A DNA stretch of 54,474 bases, taken from contig CAZONC010000001.1 in assembly GCA_964581305.1 (NCBI GenBank), forward strand, positions 1 through 54,474, in the 5' to 3' direction. Position numbers and translations under genes: made by a program. The DNA is from an uncultured archaeon (GTDB taxonomy: Archaea; Aenigmatarchaeota; Aenigmatarchaeia; CG10238-14; SCSR01). Under the pieces are notes generated by a model. It searched no databases and was not told the DNA's origin. It was given only the letters and a program-made list of their open reading frames with translations. Positions 2,381 to 32,196 of the stretch are shown in pieces. Every line of letters starts with the position of its first letter. The stretch's first letter is position 1.

Positions 2381-4582
2381 ATGGAAGAGGAATTACTAAA
2401 AATTAAAAAAATAGTAAAGGAACTAGAAGATGTTAGAGGTAGACATACCGAATTGGTTACAGTATATATTCCTGCAGGTGCCAATCTACAGGAAACCATA
2501 AACATGCTTCGACAGGAATATTCACTTGCGCAGAATGTTAAAGATAAAACTGTGCGAAAAAATGTTATGGCTGCTCTAGATAAAATAATTTACCATCTGC
2601 AGTTTTACAAAGTAACTCCTAAAAATGGATTGGCTGTTTTTTGTGGAAATGTCTCGAAAAAAGAAGGTGTAAGTGATATAAGGCTGTGGTCCATCGAGCC
2701 GCCAGAAAAGCTAACTACAAAAATTTACCGTTGTGATCAGGTCTTTATACTCGAACCACTCAAGGAAATGTTGACAGAAAAAGATGTTTTTGGTCTAATA
2801 GTTTTGGATGCAAACGAAGCAACCATAGGTTTACTTAGAGGAAAGGCCATTACAGTTGTGAAAAAGTTGGAATCAACTGTTCCAGCAAAAACAGTAAAGG
2901 GAGGTATGTGTGTCAGCGAAGATACACTAATCCAGTTAGAGGATGGTAACATTATACCGATAAAAGATCTTACCAATAATAAAAAAATTCTTTCATATTC
3001 TTTCGAAAAGTTTGAGCCAGTTTTTACAGATTCATTTGAAATTTTTAAAAAAAAGGTTAAAAAAAGTTATAAACTGATTTTTGAAGAGCCTTCAACAACA
3101 TTAACACTTACGCCAGAGCATTTGGTTTTTGTTATTAGTAAAAATGGTATAGAAGAAAAGGCTGTGGAAAAAATAAATGTAGGCGATATGCTGCTATTTC
3201 TTCATACAGTATGTCCAAAATGTAAAGACGATTCGACAATTAGTAGTGTTTTATCACAACTGCTAGGTTATTTTCTTGGTGGCGGAACGATTGATGGTAA
3301 TAGAGTAATATTTTATAATAAAGATTTGCAACTTTTAGATGTCTATAAAAAACTTGCTGAAAAAGTAAGCGGTAAAAAAACAGTAATTTATAAAAAAGGT
3401 GGTTCTTACGAATTAAGACTTTATAAAAAATCTTTTGTCGACTTTCTATTGACTAATTTTCCAAAAATTTCAAAACCGCGAAGAGAAAAAGATATAGATG
3501 AAAAAATATTGCATTTACCAAAAAATAAACTAAAACATTTTATTAGAGGGTTATTTGATGCTAAGGGATATGTTGATCAAGCAGGAATAGTCCTAAGAAT
3601 GACTAATGAAAATATCATGAAAAAGCTTCAGCTACTTTTAACGCGTTTTGGTATAGCATCAAGCTTGAGTGGCCCAGATAAATTTGACCGATATGAATTG
3701 CGGATTACAAATGTTTTGTATATCAGCAAATTCAAAAAAGAAATTGGATTTTCTTCTCAGAAAAAAGCTACAAAACTTAATATGGTAATTAAAAAATATA
3801 AAAGTGGATTTGCAACTCGAGTTCCAATATCCGGAATTCGAAAATTAATAGAAAATGCAGGACTGAAAAAGGAAGATTTAAATAAGTACATAGAGAAAAT
3901 TTATGGCTCAAACCTAATTGCACTCAAAGTTAAGGAAAAAATAAAATTGACAACAAACAGTGAATTTTATGATCTGTTCGTTCCTAAATTTAATTGTTTT
4001 GTTGCAAATGGTATACTTGTGCACAATTCACAAAAAAGGTATGATCGCCTTCGTGAAGATGCGCTAAACGAATTTTTCACAAAAGTTGGTGAAACAGCTT
4101 CACAAATATTTTTGCAACAGCCAGAATTGAAAGGAATAATTATAGGTGGGCCTGGCCCAACGAAAGAAAGCTTTGCTTCTAGTGCATATCTTCATCACGA
4201 AATACAGAAAAAAGTTCTGGGTATAAAGGATGTAGGATATACAGATGAATATGGACTAAGCGAACTTGTAAAGAGATCGTCTGATCTTATAGAAAAAGCA
4301 ACTGTGGTGAAAGAGCGAGAATTGGTGGAAAAATTTCTTACAGAGCTACAGAAAGAAGGGAATGTTGTTTATGGCTTAAATGAAACTCTACAAGCACTCG
4401 AGCAAGGTGCAGTAGATACTCTTTTAATCTCCGAGGCAATGGATTTGGCCGAAATAGAAAAATTAATGGAAAAAGCAAAAAGCTATGGCACGCGAGTTGA
4501 ATTAATATCTACTGATACGCCAGAAGGTGTACAATTCAAAGAACTTGGCGGAATAGGTGGATTTTTGCGATATAAAGCCTAA
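2381..4582 (+). CDS. prf1: peptide chain release factor aRF1, interrupted by an in-frame intein
   Basis: N-terminal part has the aRF1 layout (GRHTELVTVYIP, YRCDQVF = YxCxxxF, LIVLDANEATIGLL). C-terminal part has RYDRLRED..FF, IIIGGPGPTKE and GGIGGFLRY. The 733 aa exceed an aRF1 by about 370 aa because of the insert at KGGM|C...HN|SQ. Confidence 0.9.
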   Translation: MEEELLKIKKIVKELEDVRGRHTELVTVYIPAGANLQETINMLRQEYSLAQNVKDKTVRKNVMAALDKIIYHLQFYKVTPKNGLAVFCGNVSKKEGVSDIRLWSIEPPEKLTTKIYRCDQVFILEPLKEMLTEKDVFGLIVLDANEATIGLLRGKAITVVKKLESTVPAKTVKGGMCVSEDTLIQLEDGNIIPIKDLTNNKKILSYSFEKFEPVFTDSFEIFKKKVKKSYKLIFEEPSTTLTLTPEHLVFVISKNGIEEKAVEKINVGDMLLFLHTVCPKCKDDSTISSVLSQLLGYFLGGGTIDGNRVIFYNKDLQLLDVYKKLAEKVSGKKTVIYKKGGSYELRLYKKSFVDFLLTNFPKISKPRREKDIDEKILHLPKNKLKHFIRGLFDAKGYVDQAGIVLRMTNENIMKKLQLLLTRFGIASSLSGPDKFDRYELRITNVLYISKFKKEIGFSSQKKATKLNMVIKKYKSGFATRVPISGIRKLIENAGLKKEDLNKYIEKIYGSNLIALKVKEKIKLTTNSEFYDLFVPKFNCFVANGILVHNSQKRYDRLREDALNEFFTKVGETASQIFLQQPELKGIIIGGPGPTKESFASSAYLHHEIQKKVLGIKDVGYTDEYGLSELVKRSSDLIEKATVVKERELVEKFLTELQKEGNVVYGLNETLQALEQGAVDTLLISEAMDLAEIEKLMEKAKSYGTRVELISTDTPEGVQFKELGGIGGFLRYKA
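2909..4027 (+). mobile_element. class 1 intein with LAGLIDADG homing-endonuclease domain (373 aa) inside aRF1
   Basis: Starts with Cys (CVSEDTLIQLEDG, block A). Block B is TLTPEHLVFV. Two LAGLIDADG-like helices (LLGYFLGGGTIDG, FIRGLFDAKGYV). Ends FVANGILVHN followed by +1 Ser. The insert is 1119 nt and in frame. Confidence 0.85.
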
Positions 4583-7932: not shown

Positions 7933-8038
7933 GGGCCTGTAGCTCAGCATGGTAGAGCAGCGGGCTTTTAGCATTTGCGAAAAAGCTCTGATCGATGAAG
8001 AGACCCGTTGGTCGAGGGTTCAAATCCCTCCAGGCCCA
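7933..8038 (+). tRNA. tRNA-Lys(UUU) with a 32-nt intron at canonical position 37/38 (intron about 7971-8002)
   Basis: Acceptor GGGCCUG/CAGGCCC. D arm GCUC..GAGC. Anticodon stem GCGGG/CCCGU. Loop CU-UUU-A|intron|A. T arm GAGGG-UUCAAAU-CCCUC. Discriminator A, no encoded CCA. Nt 32-35 CUUU can pair with intron GAAG placed 2 nt before the 3' splice site (BHB-like). Confidence 0.85.
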
Positions 8039-12540: not shown

Positions 12541-13269
12541 ATGGAAAAAATATTGGGAAAAAGATCTTTTGTGAATTTTATTTTAGAATTAGAAAAAGAA
12601 AGAAGTGATGCATATGATATGATCTCTGCGTATATTACAAACCTATCTACAATTGATAAACTGAATGTAGAAACAGAGGTTAAGGAAAAAATAATTGAAC
12701 AATTTAAAAAAAGCGCATTTGGAATAGTACTTTTTTACTGGGAAAGAGGAGGAAAAAAAATAATAATATTTCCACCATTTCCACTTTTAAGAGAAGAGAT
12801 TTTTTATAGAAACACATTTGTTACGGAGCAGATAAGAGAAATTCTAACGAAAAAACATGTAATTGGTGTAATATTATTACACATAGGACAATATGCTGTT
12901 GGAATTTTTGAAAATGAAAAATTAATAAGTTCGAAATGTGGCAAACATTTTGTGCTGAGAAGACAGAAAAAGGGCGGTTCAAGTGCTAGAAGATTTCAAA
13001 GAATAAGAGAAAAGCAAATAGAAAGTTTTTTTAATGAAGTTTATGATGTAGTAAAAGAAAAGTTCGGTCCGCATATAGATAAAATAAACTATATTATATT
13101 TGGTGGGCCAAAATTAACTATTAAGAAGTTTCAGCAAAGGAATCATTTTATGAAAAAAATTATGGAGAAAACACTTAAAAAAAATATTGTTATAAGAGAA
13201 GCAAATAGAGAAAATTTGGAAAAAAGTTTGGCAGAAATATGGAAAACGAGGATTTGTGAATTGATATGA
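12541..13269 (+). CDS. eRF1-middle-domain paralog (Vms1/ANKZF1-like, VLRF1-type putative peptidyl-tRNA hydrolase)
   Basis: IGVILLHIGQYAVGIF...RRQKKGGSSARRFQRIREKQIESFFNEV...IIFGGPKLT runs parallel to the aRF1 M domain in this same window (LIVLDANEATIGLL...KTVKGGM/SQKRYDRLREDALNEFFTKV...IIIGGPGPT). It has no aRF1 N (codon-reading) domain. Confidence 0.65.
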   Translation: MEKILGKRSFVNFILELEKERSDAYDMISAYITNLSTIDKLNVETEVKEKIIEQFKKSAFGIVLFYWERGGKKIIIFPPFPLLREEIFYRNTFVTEQIREILTKKHVIGVILLHIGQYAVGIFENEKLISSKCGKHFVLRRQKKGGSSARRFQRIREKQIESFFNEVYDVVKEKFGPHIDKINYIIFGGPKLTIKKFQQRNHFMKKIMEKTLKKNIVIREANRENLEKSLAEIWKTRICELI

Positions 13270-19954: not shown

Positions 19955-20039
19955 TGGGTCCGGCCGGATTCGAACCGGCGACCTTCGCCATTTTGCTTCG
20001 CACGTCAAGGCGACGTCATACCAGCTAGACCACGGACCC
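19955..20039 (-). tRNA. tRNA-Val(GAC) with a 12-nt intron at 37/38 (about 19991-20002)
   Basis: Acceptor GGGUCCG/CGGACCC. D arm GUCU..GAC. Anticodon stem UCGCC/GGCGA. Loop UU-GAC-G|UGCGAAGCAAAA|U. T arm GCCGG-UUCGAAU-CCGGC. Discriminator A. Confidence 0.85.
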
Positions 20040-20040
20040 A

Positions 20041-20157
20041 CGCTGGAGCGGGGATTTGAACCCCGACGGTCTTACGACCACCAGCTATCCACATTTTAAT
20101 CCAGGTTAGCAGATTCGTCCTTTATCTGGCGCCTTAACCTGGTTCGGCCACTCCAGC
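20041..20157 (-). tRNA. class II tRNA, best read as tRNA-Ser(GCU), with two intervening sequences (12 nt at 20114-20125; 20 nt at 20087-20106)
   Basis: Acceptor GCUGGAG/CUCCAGC with discriminator G. D arm GCC..GGC. Long variable arm U-GGUC-GUAA-GACC-GU. T arm CGGGG-UUCAAAU-CCCCG. The 117 nt are about 32 nt too long. Removing ATAAAGGACGAA and ACCTGGATTAAAATGTGGAT gives stem CCAGU/GCUGG and loop CU-GCU-AA. Confidence 0.7.
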
Positions 20158-30433: not shown

Positions 30434-32005
30434 TCACTTAATTGCGTTTTTTAATTTTTTAATAACATCAGATTTTGCAGCAATTAAATATGGCCCAAGT
30501 CGTGGTCCTTTTTCAATCCCAAAAATTATTTTGTACAAAATTTTAAAAAATTCGGCTGGAATTAAACCATACGACTGTGCTATTTTGAATATTTTTGTTT
30601 GTAAAATCTCTCCTTCAGTTTCCTTTTCAATCTCTTTCACGAGATCGGCAATTGCTTTTCTTTCATTTTCAGTTAATTTAATCTCAACGGCTTTCGGTTT
30701 TAGAAAATCTTCATAATATTTTTTCACAAGTGCTAATTTTCTTTCAATTTCGGTTTGTGCTTTTTCTCCAGCTTCTACATATCCCATTTCTTTCAATTTT
30801 TTAATTGCAAATTCTAACTGACCGCTCTCTGGAAGAATTTTCACAATTTCAAGCAAAACATTAAATGGTATTTGTATAGATCTTTTTGGTTTTACAACTG
30901 CTAGTAAATATGCGCGCTTGTAATTTTGATCCTTCCTTTTATTTTTCGTACTTTCTATCCCGAAAAATATTCTTTCTGCCTTATCAAACTCTTTGAAAGT
31001 TTGGGGAACTAGTTTTGACAAAACTATGTTTTTTGCTATAGTAAGTCTTCCTTGAAATAGCCAGTATCTTAATTGTTGTGGTGTCATATATTTCAGCATA
31101 TCTGAAACTGTTATCACATTTCCAAGTGATTTAGACATTTTCTGTCCATTAACTAAAAAATGCTCATAAACAACCGGATATGGCGGTTTCCAACCAAGAA
31201 GCTTAACAATTTTTTTCCCAGTATCCCAACTTCCACCAGCAGCTGCATGCTCCTTTCCAAATGGTTCACATGTTGTTTTAAGAAAAACCCAACGAGCAGG
31301 CCATTCCACGCGCCAAGTAAGTTTTGCATGACCATTTAAAATAGATACCTTACCTACATAACCACAGCCAGAAATTGCATATTTTTTATGCAAAATCTTT
31401 TCACTTTCACTACAAACATATTCTGCCTCTCCGTTTTCATATGATAAAATTTTTGTTGTAGAAATTTTCCCACAATTTTCACAAATAATATTGACTGGGT
31501 ACCATTCTTTGGGTAGTGGCTGAGTTCGATATTTATTTAGAATTTTTGCTATTTCTTGTCTTTTTTCCATTGCAAGCAATATCATTTCATTATACATTCC
31601 TTTTTTATACATTTCATTTCCTAGAAGTATTTTTGGCTTAGTCAAAAGTATCTTTAGCTCTTCAATAAATTTATCCTCAAAATGCGCAGTAAAACTTTTA
31701 TGACAACCCCAGAAATCTGGAATGTTGCAAGCAGGGATGCCTAAATAATTTATCAGTTCCTTTGGCATATCAGCAGGTACAGATCTAAAAGGATCCATAT
31801 TATCTGAAATCCAGATTAAATCGACCTTTGCACCTATATTAACAAGAGCCAGTCTTATTGCATCAGCCCTCACAACATCATTGGCACTTCCTATGTGCGG
31901 TTCGCCGGACATTGATGTACCGGTTGTAATAACTTGCTTCTTAACTTTCCATTTTTTTACCAATTCCTTAGCTATTTTATCTGGCCAGAATTCATATTCT
32001 TGCAT
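30434..32005 (-). CDS. lysK: class I lysyl-tRNA synthetase
   Basis: SGEPHIGSANDV HIGH-type motif and KMSKSLGN. The 523-aa size and architecture fit archaeal class I LysRS. Confidence 0.75.
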   Translation of the reverse strand: MQEYEFWPDKIAKELVKKWKVKKQVITTGTSMSGEPHIGSANDVVRADAIRLALVNIGAKVDLIWISDNMDPFRSVPADMPKELINYLGIPACNIPDFWGCHKSFTAHFEDKFIEELKILLTKPKILLGNEMYKKGMYNEMILLAMEKRQEIAKILNKYRTQPLPKEWYPVNIICENCGKISTTKILSYENGEAEYVCSESEKILHKKYAISGCGYVGKVSILNGHAKLTWRVEWPARWVFLKTTCEPFGKEHAAAGGSWDTGKKIVKLLGWKPPYPVVYEHFLVNGQKMSKSLGNVITVSDMLKYMTPQQLRYWLFQGRLTIAKNIVLSKLVPQTFKEFDKAERIFFGIESTKNKRKDQNYKRAYLLAVVKPKRSIQIPFNVLLEIVKILPESGQLEFAIKKLKEMGYVEAGEKAQTEIERKLALVKKYYEDFLKPKAVEIKLTENERKAIADLVKEIEKETEGEILQTKIFKIAQSYGLIPAEFFKILYKIIFGIEKGPRLGPYLIAAKSDVIKKLKNAIK

Positions 32006-32041: not shown

Positions 32042-32140
32042 TGGGCCAGGAGAGATTTGAACTCTCGACCTCTCGCTTGCTTAGCCGCCTTATAAGGCGA
32101 TTAAGCACAATTGCGCTCCACCAGGCTAAGCTACTGGCCC
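32042..32140 (-). tRNA. tRNA-Ile(UAU) with two introns (12 nt at 32101-32112 in the anticodon stem, position 27/28; 13 nt at 32078-32090, position 37/38)
   Basis: Acceptor GGGCCAG/CUGGCCC, discriminator A. D arm GCUU..GAGC. T arm GAGAG-UUCAAAU-CUCUC. Removing AATTGTGCTTAA and AGGCGGCTAAGCA yields a perfect stem CUCGC/GCGAG, loop CU-UAU-AA and a 74-nt cloverleaf closely resembling archaeal tRNA-Ile. Confidence 0.7.
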
Positions 32141-32196
32141 ATATATACTTATAAACACAGCATTTATATTTTACTTTCCAAAATATATACGATAAT

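What the first reader, a model, noticed from the sequence alone, without database searches (positions are those of the whole stretch)
32042..32140. tRNA-Ile with a genomically encoded UAU anticodon and two introns, one at position 27/28
After removing AATTGTGCTTAA (27/28) and AGGCGGCTAAGCA (37/38), the gene folds into a perfect 74-nt cloverleaf with loop CU-UAU-AA and strong similarity to archaeal tRNA-Ile. Both introns have good bulge-helix-bulge geometry. For the 37/38 intron, CUUA pairs with UAAG between 3-nt bulges UA|A and CA|A. For the 27/28 intron, GAGC pairs with GCUU and GGUG pairs with CGCC between bulges GC|A and AA|U. Most archaea read AUA with an agmatidine-modified CAU tRNA made by TiaS. 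To my recollection only a few reduced lineages, such as Nanoarchaeum and Korarchaeum, use tRNA-Ile(UAU). This predicts that TiaS is absent here and raises the question of how AUG misreading is avoided.
Basis: partly seen in the sequence, partly recalled or inferred. Interest (0 to 1): 0.65.

Follow-up and report, generated by a model that had tools for sequence, protein, structure and literature searches.

The report
Two-intron isoleucine tRNA with UAU anticodon
This is a real, conserved isoleucine tRNA gene of a DPANN archaeon (Aenigmatarchaeota), interrupted by two short introns, that reads the very common AUA codon directly with a UAU anticodon; that solution turns out to be widespread in this group rather than a rarity.

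Summary
Window 32140->32042 (minus strand) is a 99-nt tRNA gene (Rfam 42.4 bits). Removing 12 nt after position 27 and 13 nt at 37/38 gives a perfect 74-nt cloverleaf with anticodon UAU. Both cut sites have a 4-bp helix between two 3-nt bulges and a 4-bp outer helix. The inner helix is at most 1 bp, so the motifs are relaxed, not strict, bulge-helix-bulge.

Orthologs settle the exon junctions. The same gene sits upstream of class-I LysRS in other Aenigmatarchaeota. Some lack the 27/28 intron, and one (L059) has the predicted spliced anticodon arm uninterrupted. Three GTDB genomes share the two-intron layout. Across 71 distinct spliced archaeal sequences, 99.5% of stem cells pair and 16 of 21 pairs covary.

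AUA makes up 45% of Ile codons here and aligns with Ile/Val in distant homologs.

A pattern scan found this tRNA type in 96 species genomes: 7 bacterial labels, the rest archaeal and mostly DPANN.

TiaS absence could not be tested. There is none in the 54 kb, and the rest of the genome is not available.

Verdict: new member of known kinds; modest interest.

The parts
32042..32140 (-). Complete tRNA-Ile(UAU) gene (99-nt pre-tRNA body; discriminator A73 at 32042; CCA not encoded)
   Evidence: Rfam RF00005 42.4 bits. Spliced form is called tRNA-Ile(tat) by ARAGORN. Orthologs found in 96 species genomes.
32113..32140 (-). Exon 1: acceptor 5' strand, D-arm, G26, C27
   Evidence: Sequence reading; cloverleaf; alignment A2.
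32101..32112 (-). Intron 1, 12 nt AAUUGUGCUUAA, between positions 27 and 28. Its GCUU pairs with D-stem GAGC(22-25). Bulges are GC|A and AA|U. Outer helix is GGUG(18-21)/CGCC(29-32).
   Evidence: It is the only excision that restores a perfect anticodon stem. BHB score H=4, h=4, h'=1. Homologous introns at 27/28 occur in L057, L010 and L066, including a GCUU->GCUC change that turns a G-U pair into G-C. It is absent from L001 and L059, whose sequence is the predicted junction.
32091..32100 (-). Exon 2: U28-C31 of the anticodon stem plus C32 U33 U34 A35 U36 A37
32092..32094 (-). Anticodon UAU (positions 34-36), genomically encoded
   Evidence: CTTATA is a fixed part of the search pattern, so its presence in every hit shows nothing; what the orthologs show is that it sits in loop register in every spliced one.
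32078..32090 (-). Intron 2, 13 nt AGGCGGCUAAGCA, at the canonical 37/38 site. Its UAAG pairs with C32-A35. Bulges are UA|A and CA|A. The outer helix is the anticodon stem.
   Evidence: BHB score H=4, h=4, h'=1. Similar 13-nt introns occur in L056 and L057. A 37/38 intron is present in all Aenigmatarchaeota-labelled orthologs found.
32042..32077 (-). Exon 3: A38, anticodon stem 3' strand, variable loop, T-arm, acceptor 3' strand, A73
32162..32170 (-). AATATAAAT, a possible archaeal TATA box centred about 26 nt upstream of G1 (inference only; the genome is AT-rich)
   Evidence: Sequence reading; not tested.
30434..32005 (-). Class-I lysyl-tRNA synthetase gene, 36 nt downstream on the same strand; conserved neighbour of this tRNA
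   Evidence: Pfam PF01921, 2.3e-111. Thermosome - tRNA-Ile(UAU) - LysRS synteny in Aenigmatarchaeota MAGs.

Best explanation
A functional gene for tRNA-Ile(UAU) in an Aenigmatarchaeota (DPANN) genome, the decoder of the abundant AUA codon. The roughly 99-nt precursor carries two short introns. The archaeal splicing endonuclease is expected to remove them at relaxed bulge-helix-bulge motifs. The 13-nt intron at 37/38 is presented by the anticodon stem plus a CUUA/UAAG helix. The 12-nt intron at 27/28 is presented by an alternative fold, in which the D-loop and the D-stem 3' strand (GGUG-GAGC) pair with CGCC(29-32) and with intron GCUU. Both folds use C29-C32, so the introns must be cut one after the other, with refolding in between. 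RtcB-type ligation and CCA addition would then give a 74-nt tRNA. Shown here: the gene, the exon junctions, the geometry of the motifs, conservation, and that AUA means Ile. Inferred: cleavage by a broad-specificity EndA, charging by IleRS, and the state of U34 (unknown; either modified as in eukaryotes or unmodified as in Mycoplasma mobile).
For: tRNA model hit. Perfect cloverleaf after the two excisions. Unique solution for intron 1. BHB geometry falls exactly at the two required junctions, 2 of only 4 qualifying sites among 2286. Orthologs: L001 and L059 lack intron 1 and show the predicted junction; L057, L010 and L066 share the two-intron layout. In 71 distinct spliced sequences 99.5% of stem cells pair and 16 of 21 pairs show compensatory change, against 31-51% paired in slid controls. 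Synteny with LysRS and thermosome is conserved. AUA is 47.9 per 1000 codons and 45% of Ile codons. AUA positions in LysRS align with I (31%) and V (22%) in 42 distant homologs, like AUU and unlike AUG. DPANN EndAs with the L3 loop are linked in the literature to disrupted and multi-intron tRNA genes (PMC5829648).
Against: There is no expression, splicing or aminoacylation data. The inner helices of both motifs are 0-1 bp, so a strict-specificity endonuclease would not cut them, and the EndA of this lineage was not examined. The minimum-free-energy fold of the precursor is a different structure, driven by an 8-bp match between intron 2 and the D-arm. For the few orthologs with an intron in the 5' strand of the anticodon stem, I chose the splice point to maximise stem pairing, which is slightly circular.
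Confidence: 0.85

Rival explanations
1. The gene is functional but not the sole AUA decoder: the genome also encodes TiaS and a tRNA-Ile2(CAU), so tRNA-Ile(UAU) is an additional or redundant isoacceptor.
For: Only 54 kb was visible. Absence of TiaS from the window says little about the genome. The TiaS family is large, with 1054 representatives at 50% identity, of which I could see only the best 150 and could not assign them to lineages.
Against: The literature reports tDNA-Ile(TAT) in place of CAT in the archaea that lack tiaS, N. equitans and K. cryptofilum (PMC3575796). No DPANN-labelled TiaS appeared among the 240 best hits of two searches, though these were biased toward other lineages. 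No TiaS term occurs in the supplementary gene tables of an Aenigmarchaeota genomics paper; these are partly HGT-only tables, so this is weak.
Confidence: 0.2
2. Splicing of the second intron occurs elsewhere in the loop, so the mature anticodon is not UAU (AGC, UGC or UAC are arithmetically possible), or a single-intron fold applies, such as ARAGORN's 'tRNA-Tyr(ata)'.
For: Enumeration shows three other 13-nt excisions that keep a perfect stem and U33. ARAGORN in intron mode reports Tyr(ata) i(33,14) on the unspliced gene.
Against: Only the 37/38 cut has the 4-bp helix between two 3-nt bulges. No single excision gives a perfect anticodon stem. In orthologs with unrelated intron sequences the intron always follows CUUAUA, and intron-less orthologs read CUUAUAC.
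Confidence: 0.03
3. It is a decaying pseudogene; the two insertions are disruptions rather than introns.
For: Standard tRNA finders fail on it or mislabel it.
Against: All 21 stem pairs are intact after splicing and the T-loop and D-loop are canonical. The same gene, in the same genomic place, is kept in many species, with compensatory changes. The insertions fall exactly at BHB-compatible sites. AUA is a major codon that needs a decoder.
Confidence: 0.03

Closest known systems
tRNA-Ile(UAU) of Nanoarchaeum equitans and Korarchaeum cryptofilum (archaea lacking tiaS)
   Same: A genomically encoded UAU anticodon for AUA in an archaeon. N. equitans is also DPANN. The literature links a TAT-anticodon tDNA-Ile to absence of tiaS (PMC3575796).
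   Different: Different phylum (Aenigmatarchaeota). This gene has two introns, one of them in the 5' strand of the anticodon stem. Absence of tiaS is not shown here. AUA is a major codon here (45% of Ile codons).
Multi-intron archaeal tRNA genes with relaxed BHB motifs (Thermoproteales; DPANN lineages with L3-loop, (alpha-beta)2 or epsilon2 EndA)
   Same: Short introns at a canonical plus a non-canonical position, each with a 4-bp helix between 3-nt bulges and one flanking helix missing. Orthologs carry up to three introns (PMC4033280, PMC5829648).
   Different: Aenigmatarchaeota were not among the DPANN genomes surveyed in PMC5829648. I could not check whether position 27/28 had been catalogued before. 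The EndA type of this lineage was not examined.
Eukaryotic cytoplasmic tRNA-Ile(UAU)
   Same: A UAU anticodon reads AUA. The gene carries a 37/38 intron that pairs with the anticodon. In eukaryotes U34 is modified to pseudouridine (PMC3575796, introduction). From my own knowledge, that modification is intron-dependent in yeast.
   Different: No evidence here for any U34 modification. All four tRNA genes in this window have introns, so the intron is not specific to this tRNA.
Mycoplasma mobile tRNA-Ile(UAU)
   Same: A prokaryote that lacks the cytidine-modifying enzyme decodes AUA with a UAU anticodon (PMC3575796).
   Different: Bacterial, no introns, bacterial-type IleRS. It offers one precedent for how AUG misreading might be limited, but nothing here tests it.

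Membership tests
tRNA (Rfam RF00005) | Covariance-model score above the gathering threshold | tested here: met
   42.4 bits against a threshold of 29 on the unspliced gene.
tRNA (Rfam RF00005) | Four-stem cloverleaf supported by covariation | tested here: met
   99.5% of cells paired; 16 of 21 pairs with changes on both sides in 71 spliced orthologs; slid controls 31-51%.
Archaeal BHB (bulge-helix-bulge) tRNA intron | Central 4-bp helix flanked by two 3-nt bulges on opposite strands, each cut after its second nucleotide | tested here: met
   Both introns have H = 4/4 at exactly the junctions required by the cloverleaf.
Archaeal BHB (bulge-helix-bulge) tRNA intron | Outer flanking helix h (2 bp or more) | tested here: met
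   4 bp for both introns.
Archaeal BHB (bulge-helix-bulge) tRNA intron | Inner flanking helix h' (needed for the strict hBHBh' form) | tested here: not met
   At most 1 bp for both introns. This makes them relaxed hBH / BHL-like, which the literature says needs a broad-specificity EndA (PMC5829648, PMC4033280).
Archaeal BHB (bulge-helix-bulge) tRNA intron | Cleavage by the splicing endonuclease and ligation | not testable with these tools
   No EndA or RtcB gene lies in the window. No RNA data.
tRNA-Ile(UAU) AUA decoder of TiaS-less archaea | UAU anticodon encoded in the DNA | tested here: met
   Window 32094-32092 on the minus strand.
tRNA-Ile(UAU) AUA decoder of TiaS-less archaea | AUA is used and means isoleucine | tested here: met
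   709 AUA among 14790 codons. AUA positions align with I/V in distant LysRS homologs.
tRNA-Ile(UAU) AUA decoder of TiaS-less archaea | No tiaS gene in the genome | tested here: inconclusive
   None in the 54-kb window or in about 800 kb of related loci. Lineage-level searches were uninformative.
tRNA-Ile(UAU) AUA decoder of TiaS-less archaea | No tRNA-Ile2(CAU) in the genome | not testable with these tools
   The window holds only four tRNA genes, none with CAU.
tRNA-Ile(UAU) AUA decoder of TiaS-less archaea | Aminoacylation with Ile | not testable with these tools
   IleRS is not in the window; the 773-aa class-I enzyme at 50-2371 is ValRS.

The most novel reading that the evidence does not exclude
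Aenigmatarchaeota, and perhaps most DPANN lineages, have given up the agmatidine/TiaS system altogether and decode a very abundant AUA codon with tRNA-Ile(UAU), as eukaryotes do. On this reading the near-universal 37/38 intron that pairs with C32-A35 would be needed, as in yeast, for an intron-dependent modification of U34 (for example pseudouridine) that prevents AUG misreading.
Probability: 0.1. Interest if true: 0.7.

Novelty: new member of a known kind. Interest (0 to 1): 0.3.

Why it matters
Textbook and review accounts say archaea read AUA through agmatidine-modified tRNA-Ile2(CAU), and that UAU anticodons are lost in prokaryotes apart from a few reduced species. This gene and its orthologs in 96 species genomes, all but 7 of them archaeal, suggest that direct UAU decoding of AUA is the common solution across DPANN archaea, where AUA can be nearly half of all Ile codons. 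If absence of TiaS is confirmed genome-wide, DPANN would be a large natural group in which to ask how a U34 tRNA avoids reading AUG. The gene also shows how intron-rich Aenigmatarchaeota tRNA genes are: all four in this window are interrupted. Standard finders mislabel or miss them, which affects tRNA-complement and completeness estimates for such MAGs.

Tried and rejected
1. ARAGORN on the raw window misses the gene. In intron mode it calls it tRNA-Tyr(ata) with one intron. I rejected this because no single excision gives a paired anticodon stem.

2. The look-up of encoding contigs with the window LysRS and its 100%-identical hit P0001 found nothing on record.

4. TiaS:
- The A. fulgidus sequence I recalled from memory was validated as identical to PDB 4RVZ.
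- tblastn against the window plus loci found nothing.
- The homolog search returned only Archaeoglobi.
- The exhaustive representative search gave 1054 family members without names.
- Cluster look-ups of the ten most AT-rich representatives gave almost no names.
- A profile of AT-rich TiaS returned Methanococci, Nitrosopumilales, Bathyarchaeia and Heimdall.
- The contig of P0327 gave no taxonomy.
None of this can show presence or absence in Aenigmatarchaeota.

5. Literature and supplement searches for TiaS, agmatidine or K06932 in DPANN papers gave no hits. The KO table in PMC8407114 seems to list only HGT candidates, so its lack of K06932 is weak evidence.

6. The count of BHB-like sites in the precursor is not above shuffled expectation (4 against a mean of 2.8). 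What is informative is that they coincide with the required junctions.

7. PMC1852824, the catalogue of multi-intron tRNAs, is not held, so I could not check whether position 27/28 was reported before.

8. I did not compare this tRNA with a tRNA-Ile(GAU) of the same lineage, because none was in the window or the loci.

Full report
**What is there**

The Rfam tRNA model matches window 32042-32140 on the minus strand (42.4 bits, threshold 29). The 99-nt sequence is:

GGGCCAGUAGCUUAGCCUGGUGGAGCGC | AAUUGUGCUUAA | UCGCCUUAUA | AGGCGGCUAAGCA | AGCGAGAGGUCGAGAGUUCAAAUCUCUCCUGGCCCA

With both marked segments removed, ARAGORN draws a perfect 74-nt cloverleaf, tRNA-Ile(tat), with loop CUUAUAA and discriminator A73. 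CCA is not encoded.

I enumerated all 3690 ways of removing one or two segments from the 42-nt anticodon region.
- Only one placement of the first segment (12 nt after C27) restores a perfect 5-bp stem with U33.
- No single-intron solution exists. That disposes of ARAGORN's 'Tyr(ata)' call on the unspliced gene.
- The second excision is arithmetically ambiguous. It gives UAU at 37/38, or AGC/UGC/UAC if placed inside the loop.

**Splice motifs**

I scored the archaeal rule: a 4-bp helix H between two 3-nt bulges, each cut after its second nucleotide.

| Intron | Central helix H | Bulges | Outer helix h | Inner helix h' |
|---|---|---|---|---|
| 1 (27/28, 12 nt) | GAGC(22-25) / GCUU | GC\|A and AA\|U | GGUG(18-21) / CGCC(29-32), 4 bp | 1 bp |
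| 2 (37/38, 13 nt) | CUUA(32-35) / UAAG | UA\|A and CA\|A | UCGC / GCGA, 4 bp | 1 bp |

Among 2286 possible site pairs in the precursor only four have H=4 and h>=3. Two are exactly the proposed introns. One is a 1-nt-inward variant of intron 1 that would not give a cloverleaf. One comes from an 8-bp match between intron 2 (GGCUAAGC) and the D-arm (GCUUAGCC). Shuffled sequences give a mean of 2.8 such sites, so the count itself is not significant. The coincidence with the required junctions is what carries weight.

They share C29-C32, so they are mutually exclusive and splicing must be sequential with refolding. According to the literature, relaxed motifs need broad-specificity endonucleases, and DPANN EndAs with the L3 loop go together with disrupted and multi-intron tRNA genes (PMC5829648; PMC4033280). 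No EndA gene is in the window.

**Host and context**

The window is archaeal with about 33% G+C. It encodes:
- class-I LysRS, thermosome, Cdc6, eIF2-gamma, PheRS alpha and beta, a TrpRS/TyrRS-family class-I synthetase, ProRS, ValRS, FttA and a proteasome subunit;
- an intein-containing aRF1.

LysRS, 36 nt downstream of the tRNA, has its best named homologs in Candidatus Aenigmatarchaeota at about 66% identity. The arrangement thermosome - (HTH regulator) - tRNA-Ile(UAU) - LysRS recurs in Aenigmatarchaeota MAGs.

**Orthologs**

- L001 (GCA_038998585.1) carries the same tRNA upstream of LysRS. It has an uninterrupted 5' anticodon stem and one 23-nt intron at 37/38.
- L002 has an extra intron in the position 8-10 region.
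- A pattern scan of one genome per GTDB species (D-arm ... CTTATA ... T-loop) returned 96 genomes. Seven have bacterial labels (CPR, Nostocales, one unclassified). Most of the rest are labelled DPANN or 'uncultured archaeon'.
- L057 (10 nt + 13 nt) and L010/L066 (15 nt + 21 nt) share the 27/28 + 37/38 layout. Their intron 1 is homologous: the ...GUGCUYAA 3' end is conserved, and a GCUU->GCUC change improves pairing with GAGC.
- L031, L080, L087 and L096 have an intron at 29/30 instead. L096 probably has three introns.
- Iainarchaeum-type genes have no intron and read CUUAUAC.
- L059 has GCUCGC-CUUAUA...AGCGAG uninterrupted on the 5' side, which is exactly the junction predicted for the window.
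- All 98 genes that could be parsed (the window's own among them) splice to 74 nt.
- In 71 distinct archaeal sequences, 99.5% of stem cells form standard pairs and 16 of 21 pairs show changes on both sides. No shuffle out of 500 reached the observed percentage paired, number of covarying pairs or covariation score. Slid controls paired 31-51%.
- One caveat: for the roughly eight genes with an intron in the 5' stem, I picked the junction that maximised pairing.

**Function**

AUA is not a rare codon here. It occurs 709 times in 14790 codons (47.9 per 1000) and makes up 45% of Ile codons. In LysRS, the 19 AUA positions align with I (31%) and V (22%) in 42 homologs of 35-43% identity. That is the same profile as AUU, and unlike AUG (M 21%). 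So AUA means Ile and needs an efficient decoder, and the conserved UAU tRNA is the obvious one.

How U34 avoids AUG is open. Known precedents are pseudouridine-34 in eukaryotes and an unmodified U34 in Mycoplasma mobile (PMC3575796).

**TiaS**

- No scanned window ORF has a TiaS domain.
- The A. fulgidus TiaS sequence, checked as identical to PDB 4RVZ, finds nothing by tblastn in the window or in about 800 kb of related loci.
- That is only a few percent of each genome, so it is uninformative.
- Attempts to learn whether Aenigmatarchaeota have TiaS failed for technical reasons.
By analogy with N. equitans and K. cryptofilum I think absence is more likely than not, but that is inference.

**Comparison and novelty**

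Each ingredient is known:
- tRNA-Ile(UAU) in archaea that lack tiaS (PMC3575796);
- multi-intron tRNAs with relaxed BHB motifs, including in DPANN (PMC4033280, PMC5829648).

This gene is a new member of both kinds, in a phylum not covered by those surveys. The more notable by-product is the breadth of the UAU solution across DPANN in public genomes, at odds with review statements that UAU is lost in prokaryotes (PMC8007984). That is a lead rather than an established result, because the co-occurrence with TiaS was not measured.

Noticed in passing
L004-L099 (genome-contig loci): tRNA-Ile(UAU) genes of this type occur in 96 GTDB species genomes spanning Aenigmatarchaeota, Woesearchaeota, Nanoarchaeia, Iainarchaeum, Micrarchaeota, Undinarchaeales and Haiyanarchaeum. 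Reviews, in contrast, state that UAU is lost in prokaryotes. The pattern was restrictive, so this is a lower bound.
   Followed up: partly
window 20041-20157 (-): A class II tRNA with discriminator G73 and about 32 nt of insertions in the anticodon arm. ARAGORN calls it Leu(taa). Enumeration plus BHB scoring favours tRNA-Ser(GCU) with two introns: 12 nt at 30/31 and 20 nt at 37/38. Ser(GGA) is not excluded.
   Followed up: partly
window 19955-20039 (-) and 7933-8038 (+): tRNA-Val(GAC) with a 12-nt intron lies one base from the class II tRNA, as a tandem pair. tRNA-Lys(UUU) has a 32-nt intron at 37/38. All four tRNA genes in the window are interrupted, and ARAGORN mislabels the Lys gene as Phe(aaa).
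   Followed up: partly
window 2381-4582 (+): The aRF1 gene (eRF1 domains 1-3) is interrupted by an intein with a LAGLIDADG homing-endonuclease domain.
   Followed up: no
window 32078-32090 versus 32124-32131 (-): Intron 2 (GGCUAAGC) is perfectly complementary to the D-arm (GCUUAGCC). This gives the precursor a very stable non-tRNA minimum-free-energy fold (-47.7 kcal/mol) that competes with both splice motifs.
   Followed up: partly
L002/L003/L051/L018, L028, L047, L096: Orthologous tRNA-Ile(UAU) genes carry further introns in the position 8-10 region or inside the acceptor stem (about 2/3). L096 seems to have three introns. So intron positions turn over quickly within the phylum.
   Followed up: partly
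L021, L023, L036, L043, L054, L072, L078, L079, L062, L082: Contigs labelled 'uncultured Methanosarcinales', 'Methanobacteriota' or 'Acidobacteriota' carry intron-containing tRNA-Ile(UAU) genes like those of Woesearchaeota and Undinarchaeales. The labels may be wrong or the bins mixed.
   Followed up: no
L030, L037, L042, L073, L076, L081, L093: Intron-less tRNA(UAU) genes with the same D-arm and T-loop occur in CPR bacteria (Paceibacterota, Yanofskybacteria, Andersenbacteria) and in Nostocales cyanobacteria.
   Followed up: no
window 12541-13269 (+): A 242-aa protein with an eRF1-domain-2 / VLRF1-like release-factor domain lies next to the SMC-ScpA-ScpB genes.
   Followed up: no
window 30434-32005 versus L010, L057: The loci that share the 27/28 intron and the HTH gene (L010, L057) have LysRS only 31-39% identical to the window's. 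Loci without that intron (L001 group) have 65-74% identity. Either the intron was lost in the L001 group or LysRS has a different history.
   Followed up: no
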